From an uncultured Verrucomicrobiae bacterium (GTDB taxonomy: Bacteria > Verrucomicrobiota > Verrucomicrobiia > Chthoniobacterales > Xiphinematobacteraceae), in contig CAVPNI010000002.1 of NCBI GenBank assembly GCA_963706715.1, forward strand, positions 288,001 to 352,000: a stretch of 64,000 nt of DNA, given 5' to 3'. Shown here in pieces: positions 47,774 to 50,587 of the stretch (the first letter of the stretch is position 1; each line of letters starts with the position of its first letter). The position numbers were made by a program, and so were the translations under genes. The notes under the pieces are model-generated. The model made no database searches. It was given only the letters and a program-made list of their open reading frames with translations, and was not told where the DNA came from.

Positions 47774-48989
47774 GGAGAGTATTCACCTAAAGATAGATAC
47801 AAATTTTTCCTGAAAAGAAGAAAAGATATCGTGAGTAGCAAGAGCAGTCCAAAGCTTGAAGGAATCGGTGTGCCACGGAGGCGCAAAGAGGGAGAATTCC
47901 TCTAAAGCAGCCAAGCTGCATAAGAGATGAGGGAAGGCCCCTCGGAGACGGCGTACAGGCGCAGACTTCAAACTACCCACTGCTGCTGCCTTTAAGAGAG
48001 GTGGTGGTGAACGAGATGGGAAAAGGTTGGGCAAAGACCTGATCAGGTGAGAATCGAAGAGACGAACGCAAGTGAACCACTGATGACGTATCGAAACGTG
48101 CATAGATGATGTCAAAACTACAGGGCGATTCTACTGTGGGATAAGTGTAGGAGTGACCTGTCAACGGCCTACGCGGCATCCGGTATAAAGGTGGCGTGAA
48201 GTCGATTCAGGCTCTTGTGTGGAACGTGGGAACCTGTCATTCCGATGAGAAGGGAGGAGCGCAAATGGAGACCCCATAAGCGCCAGAGTACCGAAACGGA
48301 GTACAGGGACGGAGCAAGCTGTAGTAGTGATGAAAGACTGTAATGGGTCTGGAGCAAAGGGCTTGCCCCATTGTGCCGAAACTGAAGCGACAACCAAGAG
48401 CAGAAACGCTTGCGGGAGGATCGTTGCGGTAATGCTGGAAAGCTCAGAGGCTTCCAAAAAAAAATGGGAAGAGCCGGATGAGTGGAGACGCTCACGTCCG
48501 GTTCTGTGAGCACCTGAGGGGGAAGTTCCCTCGGGTGACTCGACTAAACCATGTTCACTTTTTTTGAGACGACTTTAGTGCGCCGAGTCATGCGTGCTAA
48601 GTGGTGGCGTGTATTGCTATTATCTCGCTCAATAGAAGCCGTTCTGGATTTTCCAATGAAATGGCGATCCGGAGGCAGAATTTTGGAGAAGGCATCCCAG
48701 CCATCAGTATAAAAAATACAATTTTTGAGCTGTTTTACTTTATCGTAAAGTTTTTTAAAGGTTGCAGCATCACGATTACCGATGACCCGGGCAACAGTTC
48801 ACCCTGTGCTACGATCCAAGGCTTTGATGATCCACTTTTTGTTTTTTTTGACCCACCGAAATGCCACATCTCATCAAATTCCATTTCCCTGATATCACCT
48901 GATACTTTTGGGTCCGGCAATGCACTCATTTCTTTTCGAACCCATCGGTAAATTAAAGCCGGAGAATGGCCAAAAATCTTTCCTAACAT
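47774..48989 (-). mobile_element. IS1-family element remnant (InsA 3' part, A8C frameshift site, InsB), interrupted by a group II intron
   Basis: EMEFDEMWHF..SKK; A8C run at 48841-48849; -1 frame KKWIIKALDRSTG*...YTDGWDAF...IERDNSNTRHHLARMTRRTKVVSK; internal TGA at 48799-48801; terminus GGAGAGTATTCACC at 47774. Confidence 0.88.
47868..48544 (+). ncRNA. ORF-less group II intron (IIB, bacterial class D-like), 677 nt
   Basis: 5' GTGTG; domain V GAGCCGGATGAGTGGAGACGCTCACGTCCGGTTC (48471-48504; AGC triad, GAGA loop, AC bulge); domain VI with bulged A at 48538; 3' AC; removal restores the IS1 reading frame. Confidence 0.93.
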
Positions 48990-49099
48990 CTGATGTTACG
49001 CAGAGCGAAGAGAGAGGAGTTCACAATAGGCCAACTGAGTGGCTTTGATAAAGATTTTTGCGCGCAACGCAAAATGGTTCAGTTTGTGTTTAAGTTTTG
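48990..49099 (-). mobile_element. IS701-family element, right-end fragment
   Basis: Hand translation KLKHKLNHFALRAKIFIKATQLAYCELLSLRSA*, with the stop inside the terminal repeat CTGCGTAACATCAG; family assignment is from recall of IS701 C-termini. Confidence 0.7.
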
Positions 49100-50587
49100 G
49101 GCTGCCTAAAAAAAACTGTGGGTAAAAATTGGTTCAGGCAAATTAGCAAGGGTATGGTAAAGAGCAACTTCACGAGCATCAGCGGTACGAAACCCATAAC
49201 TCCGTTTTAGAGTTAATTTCACCTTGGCGTTAAGCCCTTCAACGACACCGCTGGAATATTGGCCTTTAGCCTGAAAGTAATTTAAAAGAAGAGAGCGGTG
49301 AGAGGTGAGAGTACGGGCAACTTTTTTAAGAGGCTCCAGGTGACTTCGAGTAATTTTAGTGCACCAAGCATCCAGGAATTTAGCAGCCCAGGTAGGAGAG
49401 CGATAGGTCCAAAAGTGTTGGAAAGTTTCCACTAAGAGAAAGGCGCGCAGGGTGCGTAAAGCAGAGCCTCGAATTGCCCGCATGCCAGCACGTTGGCTCT
49501 TAGTCCAATTGCATCTTTTTTTTAGGAAAGCCCAGCGCATCTTTTTAAGCAAGGGATCCAGACCTGCCTGGGCACGGGCGCGGGTTTCCTCTCTGCGGAT
49601 TTCATCGATAGCTGCGTTGAGTTTTTTAACGATGTGGAAGCGGTCAAGGATATGTAGGGCTTGTGGCAAATAATGGGCTGCTACCTTCAGATACGGTTTC
49701 CACATGTCGGAGCAAATAAAGCCGATGGCCGAACAAAACTCTTTGCCAAAAACCTCGAAGAATAGCTCAAAAGTTTTTTCAGTACGATCGCGCCCGACCC
49801 ACAAAAGTCGTTTGCAGTGATCATCGATCTGGTAGACCAGTGTCCAAAACTTATCTTTTTTTCCGACATGGATTTCATCAACTCCAAGCGCCTTTACGCC
49901 GCTTAAATCCCGATGTTGAATGCCATAATCCACCACCCATTTTACCGAAGCGTATACATCGGCCCAGCCCACTCGGAAGACTCTGGCTACCTCGGCCCAG
50001 GAGAGCATGCGTGCCCATTGTGCCAGAAAGAGACGGAAGGCTTCGCTGTGCTGTATTTTTCCGCTAGCCCAAGGAAGTTCTTCTACTGTGGGACTCCCAC
50101 AGTGTCGGCAGTCAATTCGCCGCGGTGTGTAGACTAGCCAGACCACGAAACCCCAAAGTGGCACAAAGCGCCAGCGCCGCTCTGCAAGTCTATCATATCC
50201 AGATCCTTTACGTTTGCATCCTGAGCATCTTCCCTGGCTGCCTTCTCTGGCACGTACTTCTGCTAAGATAACTCCCTTTTCTTTATCGTCCCATCCCACC
50301 GCATCATAGACAAATCCCTTGATCGGATGTACCCGCCTCATTACATTTTTAAGCGTTATATTTACCACAGAGGCTGGTTTATAGGTACCCTTTTGGGTGC
50401 CGCCAGCCTCTTTTTTACGCTCCGCCCTAATACCCAAGGAACCGATCCGATCCTCTTGCTACCTTTCAGCACTGCTCCCCCCCTGTTCCCCCTGAACGCC
50501 TGCCGCGGCGAGCGGTGCGGGGGTCTGGGGGCGGCACCAGCCCCCCTGCTAACTCTATTTTTTACCCACGAATTCTTTTATAGAGCC
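49100..50587 (-). mobile_element. ISL3-family insertion sequence, apparently complete
   Basis: Imperfect IRs GGCTGCCTAAAAAAAACTGTGGGTAAAAA (49100) and GGCTCTATAAAAGAATTCGTGGGTAAAAA (reverse complement, ending 50587); no target duplication. Confidence 0.92.
49106..50437 (-). CDS. ISL3 family transposase (true start probably near 50370)
   Basis: Zinc finger CSGC/CRHC, GVDE, CSDMW, LDRFHIV and VEGLN..K...RSYGFR motifs; uninterrupted. Confidence 0.93.
   Translation of the reverse strand: MGIRAERKKEAGGTQKGTYKPASVVNITLKNVMRRVHPIKGFVYDAVGWDDKEKGVILAEVRAREGSQGRCSGCKRKGSGYDRLAERRWRFVPLWGFVVWLVYTPRRIDCRHCGSPTVEELPWASGKIQHSEAFRLFLAQWARMLSWAEVARVFRVGWADVYASVKWVVDYGIQHRDLSGVKALGVDEIHVGKKDKFWTLVYQIDDHCKRLLWVGRDRTEKTFELFFEVFGKEFCSAIGFICSDMWKPYLKVAAHYLPQALHILDRFHIVKKLNAAIDEIRREETRARAQAGLDPLLKKMRWAFLKKRCNWTKSQRAGMRAIRGSALRTLRAFLLVETFQHFWTYRSPTWAAKFLDAWCTKITRSHLEPLKKVARTLTSHRSLLLNYFQAKGQYSSGVVEGLNAKVKLTLKRSYGFRTADAREVALYHTLANLPEPIFTHSFF

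What the first reader, a model, noticed from the sequence alone, without database searches (positions are those of the whole stretch)
47868..48544. Target-matched, ORF-less group II mini-intron parasitising an IS1 transposase in antisense
Seen: 5' GTGTG, a canonical domain V (48471-48504), domain VI with bulged A at 48538 and a 3' AC. Domain IV is only about 100 nt (closed by CCCATT/AATGGG) with no RT ORF, but keeps a stem-loop with a GGGAGG Shine-Dalgarno. The loop CGATTCT (48126-48132, in stem CTACAG/CTGTGG) pairs with the last 7 nt of the 5' exon GGAATCG (47861-47867), as EBS1-IBS1 would. Excising 47868-48544 rejoins the minus-strand IS1 InsB in frame (GTT TA|C GAT TCC TTC AAG CTT TGG = VYDSFKLW...IFR*). 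Established: the layout resembles class D introns such as RmInt1, which home into IS elements and bind their protein at DIVa. Inference: this is a cleanly reduced non-autonomous retroelement that could still splice and be mobilised in trans by an RT/maturase encoded elsewhere. Because it is antisense, it cannot be spliced from transposase mRNA, so it would act as a sequence-programmed IS1 knockout agent.
Basis: partly seen in the sequence, partly recalled or inferred. Interest (0 to 1): 0.85.

Follow-up and report, generated by a model that had tools for sequence, protein, structure and literature searches.

The report
ORF-less group II intron inside IS1
A 677-base self-splicing-type intron that has lost its own reverse-transcriptase gene sits backwards inside a decayed IS1 element and has copied itself a few times in this genome, apparently with an enzyme borrowed from a related intron, which is a known though uncommon lifestyle in bacteria.

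Summary
Window 47868-48544 (+) is a complete group II intron RNA: Rfam RF01999, 100.5 bits, and RF00029, 58.2 bits. It starts GTGTG, has the branch A at 48538, and carries a ~107-nt domain IV with no RT gene. Removing it restores the minus-strand IS1 frame.

The genome holds 4 copies with the same domain IV layout.
- Three copies sit at one site in IS1 copies that differ 4-11% from each other, while the introns differ 0.4-0.7%.
- The fourth sits in another IS family. Its EBS1 loop carries a T-to-C change that compensates an A-to-G change in its target.

So the ORF-less form spread by precise, RNA-guided insertion.

Only one cognate RT frame is still open. It lies in a 5'-truncated copy on contig C4, is 55% identical to the RmInt1 protein, and has ATA in place of the start codon.

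Most target sites are empty: 10 of 13 in IS1 and 5 of 6 in the second IS. Present activity is therefore uncertain.

[quoted passage not shown] "IS1 knockout agent" over-reads a side effect. Interest 0.35.

The parts
47775..47867 (-). IS1-family element, 3' end of the transposase reading frame (this is the intron's 5' exon on the + strand). IBS1 GGAATCG lies at 47861-47867.
   Evidence: BLAST against the other IS1 copies puts the IS end at C2:335775, which is window 47775. The frame ...DSFKLW...IFR* reads on the minus strand.
47868..48544 (+). ORF-less group II intron, 677 nt, RmInt1-like (class D / IIB3) lineage
   Evidence: RF01999 100.5 bits and RF00029 58.2 bits. MFE fold z = -4.07. 123 of 130 consensus D1-D3 pairs are kept. 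There are 4 copies in the genome.
47868..48222 (+). Domain I (approximate 3' limit), beginning with 5' GTGTG
   Evidence: Consensus fold of the alignment with RmInt1 and other relatives. The RF01999 match covers 47929-48048.
48100..48104 (+). EBS2 placed by homology (GCATA). It is complementary to TATGC of a YADD-coding site, not to IS1 positions -13 to -9.
   Evidence: In the alignment, the EBS2 loops of RmInt1, the Methylomonas mini-intron, L069 and L066 each match their own 5' exon. The RmInt1 IBS2 positions come from PMC3123198 (passages).
48126..48132 (+). EBS1 loop CGATTCT in the stem CTACAG/CTGTGG
   Evidence: It pairs with GGAATCG. The C1 copy reads CGACTCT against the target GGAGTTG, which is a compensatory change. 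EBS1 matches the intron's own 5' exon in 7 of 7 related introns compared.
48188..48188 (+). EBS3 (A), which pairs with T at +1 of the 3' exon
   Evidence: This column is homologous to RmInt1 G329. Across 6 introns it is A where +1 is T and G where +1 is C. G329 is named as EBS3 in PMC3123198.
48233..48356 (+). Domains II and III (approximate limits)
   Evidence: Consensus fold and MFE fold.
48361..48468 (+). Reduced domain IV. The closing helix is CCCATT/AATGGG, the SD GGGAGG is at 48414-48419, a remnant ATG is at 48432, and there is no RT gene.
   Evidence: Sequence, ORF list and alignment to the RT-bearing C4 copy, which carries about 1.2 kb more here.
48471..48504 (+). Domain V
   Evidence: RF00029 match. 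It is 96% identical, counted over the last 82 nt together with domain VI, to the RT-bearing copy on C4.
48507..48544 (+). Domain VI with the bulged branch A at 48538, and the 3' end ...GAC
   Evidence: RF00029 match and MFE fold.
48545..48989 (-). IS1-family element, the DDE transposase part (this is the intron's 3' exon on the + strand). It is pseudogenised and cut off at 48989/48990.
   Evidence: PF03400 54.9 bits and NF033558 74.6 bits on 48547-48798. Frameshift and in-frame stop. The match to other IS1 copies ends at query position 445.

Best explanation
This is a non-autonomous group II intron of the RmInt1-like (class D / IIB3) lineage.

**What it is (shown).** One ancestor lost almost the whole RT/maturase gene from domain IV. 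It kept the ribozyme (domains I-III, V, VI) and the base of domain IV with the Shine-Dalgarno region.

**How it spread (inferred from the copies).**
- The RNA would be spliced out as a lariat with the help of an RT/maturase supplied in trans by a related intron copy.
- The RNP finds DNA by base pairing. EBS1 pairs with the last 7 nt of the 5' exon, and EBS3 (A at 48188) pairs with T at +1.
- The RNA reverse-splices into that strand and is copied into DNA.
- Because the cognate protein has no endonuclease domain, priming would come from the replication fork, as described for RmInt1.

**Retargeting.**
- The ancestral target of the lineage was the YADD-coding site of other introns' RT genes.
- Changes in EBS1 moved the ORF-less form to GGAGTCG/GGAGTTG sites.
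- One further change (C to T) moved it to GGAATCG in IS1.

**Consequence.** The target sequence lies on the antisense strand of the transposase gene. Insertion therefore splits the gene and cannot be undone by splicing of the transposase mRNA. That is a side effect.

**Present state.** Whether the element still moves is open. The only cognate RT frame lacks a normal start codon, and most target sites are empty.
For: **Intron identity and integrity**
- RF01999 and RF00029 both give full-length matches.
- The fold has z = -4.07.
- In a consensus fold built with RmInt1 and four other relatives there are 130 pairs, 57 of them with compensatory changes.
- The window copy keeps 123 of those 130 pairs, the same number as RmInt1.

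**One deletion followed by spread**
- The genome holds 4 copies of 674-678 nt with the same domain IV layout.

**Independent, precise insertions**
- Introns in three IS1 copies differ by 3/678, 5/678 and 4/678 positions.
- Their IS1 flanks differ by 23/538, 56/539 and 57/540 positions (Fisher p from 3e-6 to 8e-17).
- Flank differences begin within 4-8 nt of the junctions.

**RNA-guided targeting**
- The C1 copy carries EBS1 T-to-C together with IBS1 A-to-G.
- A 147-nt derivative at C2:569497-569643 sits after GGAGTCG, which matches that same EBS1 variant.
- EBS1 matches the intron's own exon in 7 of 7 related introns.
- EBS3 covaries with the +1 base in 6 of 6 introns.

**Cognate RT**
- C4:2343-3587 (-) encodes 415 aa with RVT_1 and GIIM domains and scores 449.9 bits against TIGR04416.
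- It has YADD, no endonuclease domain, and no stops or frameshifts.
- Its domains V-VI are 96% identical to those of the mini-intron.
- All other RTs in the genome are at most 35% identical to it.

**Lineage**
- The RT is 55% identical to the IEP of the intron I identify as RmInt1.
- That identification rests on IBS1, T-15/G-16, EBS1 and G329, as given in PMC4075523 and PMC3123198 (passages).

**Precedent**
- Passages of PMC4615759 state that the RmInt1 IEP acts in trans.
- Passages of PMC2882425 describe the ORF-less TeI3 introns, which share one deletion and spread after EBS divergence.
Against: - **No full-length parent.** All 4 RF01999 matches in the genome are the mini-introns themselves.
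- **Doubtful RT expression.** The RT-bearing C4 copy is cut off inside domain IV. It has ATA where the 147-nt derivative has ATG and where a relative in genome G231 has TTG. Its 499-codon open frame starts in unrelated upstream DNA.
- **The other RT is dead.** The second cognate RT piece (C3:52622-53252) is truncated and frameshifted.
- **Low occupancy.** 10 of 13 IS1 sites are empty, and 8 of those carry a perfect GGAATCG|T. In the second IS family 5 of 6 sites are empty.
- **EBS2 mismatch.** EBS2 placed by homology (GCATA) does not pair with IS1 positions -13 to -9. In RmInt1 selections, 86% of active introns had all five EBS2 pairs.
- **No sign of transcription.** No sigma-70-like promoter was found upstream on the + strand: 0 found against 2.1 expected. 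No RNA data were available.
- **Strand bias not shown.** The intron sense strand lies on the G-rich strand for only 5 of 7 elements.
- **Caveat on the structure count.** The two mini-introns were part of the alignment from which the consensus fold was derived.
Confidence: 0.8

Rival explanations
1. It is an extinct fossil family. The ORF-less intron did spread in trans in the recent past, but the helper RT is now dead or unexpressed, so the copies are immobile relics. At most they can still self-splice.
For: - The native start codon of the only open cognate RT frame reads ATA, and that copy lacks domains I-III.
- The other RT piece is frameshifted.
- 15 of 19 target sites across the two IS families are empty.
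- The older C1 copy has lost 4 more consensus pairs: 119 of 130 against 123 of 130.
Against: - The three IS1-borne copies are 99.3-100% identical, so the last insertions are recent.
- The C4 RT has no stop or frameshift over 415 codons and keeps YADD and the X domain.
- The SD GGGAGG lies 6 nt before the ATA, and an in-frame GTG lies 14 codons upstream.
- The contig breaks fall in repeats, so an intact copy could be hidden in a gap.
Confidence: 0.4
2. The copies were spread at the DNA level, by duplication of IS1 plus intron as a unit or by gene conversion between IS1 copies, and not by retrohoming.
For: IS1 copies are 86-98% identical over about 790 bp and could recombine.
Against: - The flanks differ 6-18 times more than the introns, and the differences start 4-8 nt from both junctions. 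Conversion tracts would therefore have to end exactly at the intron ends.
- The fourth copy lies in an unrelated IS and carries a matching EBS1 change.
Confidence: 0.04
3. It is a one-off deletion relic of a full-length intron that lost its ORF after insertion. This is the null hypothesis the first reader named.
For: ORF loss and fragmentation are the usual decay route of bacterial group II introns (passages of PMC4424553).
Against: - Four copies share the same domain IV layout, at two kinds of target.
- The ribozyme pairs are kept as well as in RmInt1.
Confidence: 0.02
4. It is kept by the host as a tool that silences IS1 (a "sequence-programmed IS1 knockout agent").
For: - Insertion splits the DDE region and is antisense, so it cannot be spliced from the transposase mRNA.
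- RmInt1 insertion is said to block the spread of ISRm2011-2 (passage of PMC5894124).
Against: - Only 3 of 13 IS1 sites are occupied.
- The window's IS1 copy is already truncated and carries a stop and a frameshift. The other IS1 copies examined are frameshifted or have a scrambled segment.
- Nothing indicates selection for the insertions.
Confidence: 0.05

Closest known systems
TeI3 ORF-less group II introns of Thermosynechococcus elongatus (Mohr, Ghanem and Lambowitz 2010, PMC2882425; passages read)
   Same: - One ancestral deletion in domain IV is shared by all copies, with remnants of the ORF ends kept.
- Spread was by retrohoming to new sites after EBS divergence.
- The family depends on the IEP of a related intron in the same genome.
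   Different: - This element belongs to a different lineage: RmInt1-like, whose IEP has no endonuclease domain, rather than chloroplast-like IIB with an En domain.
- The scale is much smaller: 4 copies against 17.
- No intact RT-encoding intron is left here, only a 5'-truncated copy with an open frame.
- Mobility here is inferred, not shown experimentally.
RmInt1 of Sinorhizobium meliloti (IIB3 / class D) and its laboratory deltaORF derivatives (PMC4075523, PMC3123198, PMC4615759, PMC5894124; passages read)
   Same: - Both share the RF01999 domain I motif, a 7-bp EBS1/IBS1, and EBS3 at the homologous coordination-loop position.
- The cognate IEP has RT and X domains only and is 55% identical to the RmInt1 IEP.
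- Both home into an insertion sequence.
- The RmInt1 IEP works in trans on an ORF-deleted ribozyme.
   Different: - This is a natural ORF-less form rather than an engineered one.
- The target is IS1 (and a second IS), not ISRm2011-2 of the IS630 family.
- EBS2 is not matched to the current target.
- The host belongs to another phylum: relatives were found in only 3 of 400 other genomes sampled from its phylum.
ORF-less relative on a Methylomonas sp. AM2-LC plasmid (CP157007.1, 31043-31700; found here)
   Same: - It is 658 nt and 72% identical over positions 48-677.
- It matches RF01999 (123.5 bits) and RF00029 (54.4 bits).
- Its domain IV is reduced to about 100 nt with the SD kept.
- Its EBS1 and EBS2 loops both match its own 5' exon.
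   Different: - The domain IV sequences are not alignable with each other, so the ORF loss was probably independent.
- It sits at a single site.
- That record carries no annotation.
ORF-less and RT-encoding introns of Methanosarcina that home into related intron ORFs (Dai and Zimmerly 2003; seen only as a reference title)
   Same: The RT-bearing relatives sit at the YADD|F codon of another intron's RT gene. This applies to the C4 copy, the S. meliloti L069 copy and the G231 copy.
   Different: - Those hosts are archaeal.
- I did not read that paper, so the comparison rests on its title and on recall.

Membership tests
Group II intron ribozyme | 5' GUGYG and 3' AY termini | tested here: met
   GTGTG at 47868 and ...GAC at 48544. 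All 4 copies are identical at both ends.
Group II intron ribozyme | Domain V (34-nt helix with a 2-nt bulge) and domain VI with a bulged branch A | tested here: met
   RF00029 match over positions 1-77 of 77, 58.2 bits against a gathering score of 40. A is unpaired at 48538 in the MFE fold.
Group II intron ribozyme | Domain I with EBS1 complementary to the 5' exon | tested here: met
   CGATTCT against GGAATCG. A compensatory change is seen in the C1 copy. The match holds in 7 of 7 related introns.
Group II intron ribozyme | Conserved domain I-III secondary structure | tested here: met
   130 consensus pairs, 57 with compensatory changes. The window copy keeps 123 of 130, as does RmInt1. Caveat: the mini-introns were part of the alignment.
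Group II intron ribozyme | Self-splicing with lariat formation | not testable with these tools
   No RNA run was listed. This needs in vitro splicing or RT-PCR.
Class D / IIB3 (RmInt1-like) introns | IEP with RT and X domains and no D/En region | tested here: met
   The cognate C4 RT shows only RVT_1 and GIIM among intron-related Pfam families, has 415 aa in its native part, and ends a few codons after the X domain inside domain V.
Class D / IIB3 (RmInt1-like) introns | IEP groups with class D IEPs | tested here: inconclusive
   It is 55% identical over 404 aa to the RmInt1 IEP. Against that, it is 33% identical to the pO157 RT and at most 35% to the other RTs of this genome. No tree with labelled class references was built. 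That the pO157 RT is E.c.I4 (class A in PMC3552965) is recalled, not checked.
Class D / IIB3 (RmInt1-like) introns | IIB-type 3' exon recognition by a single EBS3 base in the coordination loop | tested here: met
   The column of RmInt1 G329 holds A in the mini-introns, whose +1 base is T. It covaries with +1 in 6 of 6 introns.
Class D / IIB3 (RmInt1-like) introns | Class-specific C-terminal tail of the IEP | not tested
   The tail aligns with that of RmInt1 (for example ...FAHW against ...FVHW). The published signature was not available to me as sequence.
ORF-less, trans-mobilised group II introns | ORF removed from domain IV with the same layout in all copies | tested here: met
   Alignment of the 4 copies. 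The C4 copy has about 1.2 kb more at this place.
ORF-less, trans-mobilised group II introns | Several insertions at sites with matched EBS/IBS that are younger than their targets | tested here: met
ORF-less, trans-mobilised group II introns | A functional related IEP gene in the same genome | tested here: inconclusive
   One open 415-codon cognate frame remains, but with ATA at the start position and inside a 5'-truncated copy. The second cognate piece is broken.
ORF-less, trans-mobilised group II introns | Mobilisation by the IEP shown by experiment | not testable with these tools
   This needs a donor/recipient mobility assay.
IS1 family (the target element) | DDE_Tnp_IS1 transposase | tested here: met
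   PF03400 54.9 bits (cut-off 24.1). NF033558 74.6 bits on an 84-aa piece. An N-terminal zinc-finger part is present in full copies.

The most novel reading that the evidence does not exclude
This may be a natural two-part retroelement in the RmInt1-like lineage.

- **The RNA part:** a compact 677-nt ribozyme that still moves.
- **The protein part:** an RT expressed from an immobile, 5'-truncated intron stump, started at a near-cognate codon behind its strong SD or read in from upstream. That would make it a fixed helper gene, much as LINEs serve SINEs.

The ribozyme was retargeted from RT genes to two IS families by single EBS1 changes, and it inserts without the usual EBS2 pairing.

The independent ORF-less relative on a Methylomonas plasmid would make ORF loss a recurrent strategy of this lineage rather than an accident.
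Probability: 0.25. Interest if true: 0.55.

Novelty: new member of a known kind. Interest (0 to 1): 0.35.

Why it matters
[quoted passage not shown] The best-studied case of their spread in trans is a single cyanobacterium.

This case adds an example from the endonuclease-less RmInt1-like lineage, and the sequence itself carries unusually clear evidence:
- the introns are younger than the IS copies they sit in;
- a single-base EBS1 change tracks a change of target;
- a series of decay products survives (a 5'-truncated RT copy, an RT remnant and a 147-nt derivative).

If the element is still active, three things follow:
- an immobile intron stump can serve as the helper gene;
- EBS2 pairing is dispensable for homing in nature;
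- the 677-nt RNA would be a compact natural scaffold comparable to the engineered RmInt1-deltaORF targeting vectors.

If it is extinct, it is simply a well-documented stage in the selection-driven extinction of introns.

Tried and rejected
**Searches that found nothing**
- **RNA evidence:** The look-up of sequencing runs listed 6 soil-metagenome DNA runs with small shares (0.05-0.09) and no RNA holder. I did not lay them.
- **Metagenome scans:** exact scans for the domain IV/domain V junction and for the first 20 nt of the intron each gave 0 matches.
- **Relatives' genomes:** 0 of 60 related genomes carry the element; there was only an 84% match to 43 nt of domain V in G021.
- **Phylum sample:** 3 of 400 other genomes have relatives (G231, G354, G195). 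Each holds an RT-coding match next to the hit, and in G231 domains I-III and V-VI lie about 1.3 kb apart.
- **Protein-based search:** The search for related loci with the C4 RT returned only 2 loci at about 61% identity.
- **Earlier findings of this scan:** nothing was on record.

**Full-length comparators**
- In Shigella and E. coli plasmids the RT is 75% identical and domains I-III are 81% identical to ours. In Shigella sonnei Ss046 pSS_046, the one record checked, the two parts lie about 12 kb apart and the RT is frameshifted, so these records were not usable as a parent model.

**Class A assignment: rejected.** The pO157 RT is only 33% identical to the C4 RT.

**Inconclusive tests**
- **Strand bias:** the test for insertion into the lagging-strand template by GC skew put 5 of 7 elements on the G-rich strand, with weak skew. 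This is not decisive.
- **Promoter scan:** 0 sites were found against 2.1 expected, which says nothing either way.
- **Alternative EBS2:** TCGAA at 48091-48095 could form 4-5 pairs with IS1 positions -13 to -9. However, TCGAAA is conserved in relatives with other targets, so I do not count it.
- **RT relic in domain IV:** the match (TGCTGGAAA...TCA[A/G]AGGCTTC) is short and may be chance.

**Not obtained**
- Simon et al. 2008 (PMC2525955) is not held.
- The supplementary tables of PMC3552965, which list class D introns, were not opened. They might name the Shigella relative.

Two family scans failed on a wrong frame and were repeated with corrected coordinates.
Full report
**1. The observation**

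Window 47868-48544 (+) is a complete group II intron RNA without a protein gene.
- Rfam gives two full-length matches above the gathering scores. They are group-II-D1D4-2 (RF01999) at 47929-48048 with 100.5 bits, and Intron_gpII (RF00029, domains V-VI) at 48469-48544 with 58.2 bits.
- The sequence starts GTGTG and ends GAC.
- The minimum-free-energy fold has six domains, with a single unpaired A at 48538 in the 3' strand of domain VI. Its z-score is -4.07, and 0 of 20 shuffles folded as well.
- Domain IV is about 107 nt. It is closed by CCCATT (48367-48372) and AATGGG (48463-48468) and keeps GGGAGG at 48414-48419.
- The longest + strand ORF inside the intron is 60 aa and is not an RT.

The flanks are an IS1-family element on the minus strand.
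- The piece 48547-48798 scores 54.9 bits against Pfam DDE_Tnp_IS1 and 74.6 bits against NCBIfam transpos_IS1.

**2. Copies in the genome**

The genome (3.04 Mb in 4 contigs) holds four copies of 674-678 nt:
- C2:335868-336544 (the window copy)
- C3:566607-567284
- C3:889733-890409
- C1:594019-594692, which is 94% identical to the window copy

All four have the same domain IV layout.

The first three lie at the same position in three different IS1 copies.
- The introns differ by 3, 5 and 4 positions out of 678.
- Their IS1 flanks differ by 23/538, 56/539 and 57/540 positions (Fisher p 3e-6, 1e-15 and 8e-17).
- Flank differences begin 4-8 nt from the junctions.
- The introns are therefore younger than the divergence of their host IS copies, and they were inserted precisely. 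This speaks for retrohoming and against duplication or gene conversion.

The fourth copy lies antisense in a different multi-copy IS, which gives a weak DDE_Tnp_1 match of 19.5 bits, below the cut-off.
- Its 5' exon ends GGAGTTG and its EBS1 loop reads CGACTCT instead of CGATTCT. This is a change on both sides of one base pair.

Occupancy of the targets is low.
- In IS1, 3 of 13 sites are occupied. Of the 10 empty sites, 8 read GGAATCG|T and 2 read GGAATTG|T.
- In the second IS, 1 of 6 sites is occupied.

**3. Lineage and target recognition**

I aligned the two mini-intron variants with five relatives:
- an ORF-less relative on a Methylomonas plasmid;
- three full-length introns from an S. meliloti pSymA record;
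- one intron from an acidobacterial MAG.

One of the S. meliloti introns (L083) is RmInt1 by four published marks (PMC4075523 and PMC3123198, passages; alignment):
- the 5' exon ends GATGAGA, with T at -15 and G at -16;
- the EBS1 loop contains TTTCGTC;
- G stands at position 329;
- C stands at +1.

Its length of 1884 nt also agrees with what I recall for RmInt1.

What the alignment shows:
- EBS1 matches the intron's own 5' exon in 7 of 7 introns.
- The column of RmInt1 G329 (EBS3) holds A in the mini-introns, at window 48188, and their +1 base is T. Across 6 introns this column covaries with +1.
- The EBS2 loop, placed by homology, reads GCATA (48100-48104). It does not pair with IS1 positions -13 to -9 (CTTGA, TTTGA or CTTAA).
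- GCATA does pair with TATGC of the codons for Tyr-Ala in a YADD motif.

The RT-bearing members of the lineage sit at or next to that place.
- The S. meliloti intron L069 lies after ...TATGCCGACGACT.
- The C4 copy of this genome and the G231 relative both have 3' exons that begin TC and read on as the residues after YADD-F.

I infer that the ancestral homing site was the YADD region of other introns' RT genes. The ORF-less form then moved to new targets through EBS1 changes alone.

A consensus fold of domains I-III from six sequences has 130 pairs, 57 of them with compensatory changes.
- The window copy forms 123 of the 130 pairs, the same as RmInt1.
- The older C1 copy forms 119.
- Caveat: the mini-introns contributed to that consensus.

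**4. The helper**

RF01999 matches in the genome are the four mini-introns only, so no full-length parent is assembled. Three related pieces exist.

(a) C4:2277 to about 3660 (-)
- It begins inside domain IV and runs through an RT gene to domains V-VI. Those domains are 96% identical to the mini-intron's.
- The RT is 415 aa with RVT_1 and GIIM domains, scores 449.9 bits against TIGR04416, has YADD and has no endonuclease domain.
- It aligns end to end with the RmInt1 IEP without stops or frameshifts.
- At the start position it has ATA, 6 nt behind GGGAGG. A derivative in this genome has ATG there and the G231 relative has TTG.
- The 499-codon open frame listed by the ORF tool starts in unrelated upstream DNA.

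(b) C3:52622-53252
- This is a truncated and frameshifted RT C-terminus with domains V-VI.

(c) C2:569497-569643
- This is a 147-nt derivative. It holds the first 28 nt of the intron, the SD with ATG and five codons, the last codons of the RT, and domains V-VI.
- It lies after GGAGTCG, which fits the CGACTCT form of EBS1.
- It shows that an RT-encoding intron with the mini-intron's 5' end once existed in this genome.

All other RT genes of the genome (15 RVT_1 matches, among them an 11-copy family) are at most 35% identical to the C4 RT. Cross-mobilisation by them is unlikely, although I did not test it.

The C4 RT is 55% identical to the RmInt1 IEP, 67% to a second S. meliloti intron, 75% to a frameshifted ltrA on Shigella and E. 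coli plasmids, and 33% to the RT on pO157.

**5. Mechanism**

Shown:
- the ribozyme anatomy;
- the shared deletion;
- independent, precise insertions;
- EBS1 and EBS3 matched to their targets.

Inferred:
- splicing and reverse splicing with an RT/maturase supplied in trans;
- priming at the replication fork, because the protein has no endonuclease.

The precedents are these:
- the RmInt1 IEP acts in trans, and RmInt1-deltaORF constructs are used for gene targeting (PMC4615759 and PMC4075523, passages);
- the ORF-less TeI3 family of T. elongatus shares one deletion, diverged in its EBS sequences and is mobilised by related IEPs (PMC2882425, passages).

Evidence against present activity:
- the missing start codon;
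- the many empty sites;
- the unmatched EBS2, given that in RmInt1 selections 86% of active introns paired all five EBS2 bases;
- no detectable promoter;
- no RNA data.

**6. The "IS1 knockout" reading**

The target sequence lies on the antisense strand of the transposase gene. Insertion therefore splits the gene irreversibly. However, this is a consequence of where the sequence match lies.
- The window's IS1 copy is cut off at 48989/48990 by other repeats, with an ISL3-family element starting near 49100, and it has a frameshift and an in-frame stop.
- The other IS1 copies examined are frameshifted or carry a scrambled segment.
- Most sites are unoccupied.
- The idea that intron insertion limits an IS has already been voiced for RmInt1 and ISRm2011-2 (PMC5894124, passage).

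**7. Novelty**

ORF-less bacterial group II introns that live beside related IEP-encoding introns are described, and are called rare (PMC4424553, passages).
- My searches for "ORF-less" with "group II intron" and "bacterial" (77 papers) and with "class D" and "in trans" (2 papers) turned up no natural ORF-less RmInt1-like family in the listings I read. Simon et al. 2008 and the intron database itself could not be consulted.
- I also found an independent ORF-less relative of 658 nt on a Methylomonas plasmid, with matched EBS1 and EBS2.

Verdict: a real and well-preserved feature, and a new member of a known kind. Interest 0.35.

Noticed in passing
G000 whole genome; nearest copy just outside the window at C2:353162-354407: The genome is crowded with group II introns. 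There are 25 RF00029 matches above the gathering score and 15 RVT_1 matches above the cut-off. Among them is a family with a 507-aa RT in about 11 near-identical copies that is unrelated to the mini-intron (at most 35% identity).
   Followed up: partly
L041 (G000:C4:1236-4898), C4:1492-3660: Nested introns. The cognate RT-bearing fragment sits inside the RT gene of a different intron, right after its YADD motif. The host intron's own domains V-VI are at C4:1492-1568. The same kind of site is used by relatives in S. meliloti (L069) and in G231 (L084).
   Followed up: partly
L008 (G000:C2:569497-569643, minus strand): A 147-nt derivative. It holds the intron's first 28 nt, the SD, ATG plus 5 codons, the last RT codons, and domains V-VI. 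It lies just downstream of a 208-aa gene. It cannot be a ribozyme because it has no domain I.
   Followed up: partly
L063 1451-2108 (Methylomonas sp. AM2-LC plasmid CP157007.1, 31043-31700): An independent 658-nt ORF-less intron of the same lineage sits on an unannotated plasmid record. Its EBS1 (TAGTGGC) and EBS2 (AGCAA) loops match its own 5' exon.
   Followed up: partly
G000 IS1 copies, e.g. C3:250075-250876 and C4:520976-521767: Some IS1 copies have one uninterrupted transposase-length ORF. In it, about 22 residues after the DEMWHF motif are read in the wrong frame (two compensating frameshifts around an A-run). Other copies have a plain frameshift plus a stop. Three copies (C1:659268-660152, C3:937829-938714, C2:603361-603848) also carry an insertion of about 83 nt some 26 nt from the intron site.
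   Followed up: no
window 49106-50437 (-) and 48985-49099: An ISL3-family transposase (PF01610, 217.5 bits). The end of its element matches more than 40 places in the genome at 93-100% identity, most at 99-100%. A 115-nt repeat between it and the IS1 recurs at 4 to 5 other places. Genomes placed in the same genus include two of about 0.9 Mb, so this 3.0-Mb genome looks like a repeat-expanded relative of reduced genomes.
   Followed up: no
G000:C2:42787-43083 (-) and C2:39669-39715 (+): Two further fragments of a diverged copy of the same intron lineage lie about 3 kb apart on opposite strands. One is 83% identical to positions 180-470 and the other 94% identical to positions 481-527. A tRNA gene lies next to the first.
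   Followed up: no
L004 (G000:C1:592519-596192): The second target element is a multi-copy IS with only a weak DDE_Tnp_1 match. It has 6 copies carrying the site. The mini-intron is again antisense to the transposase frame.
   Followed up: partly
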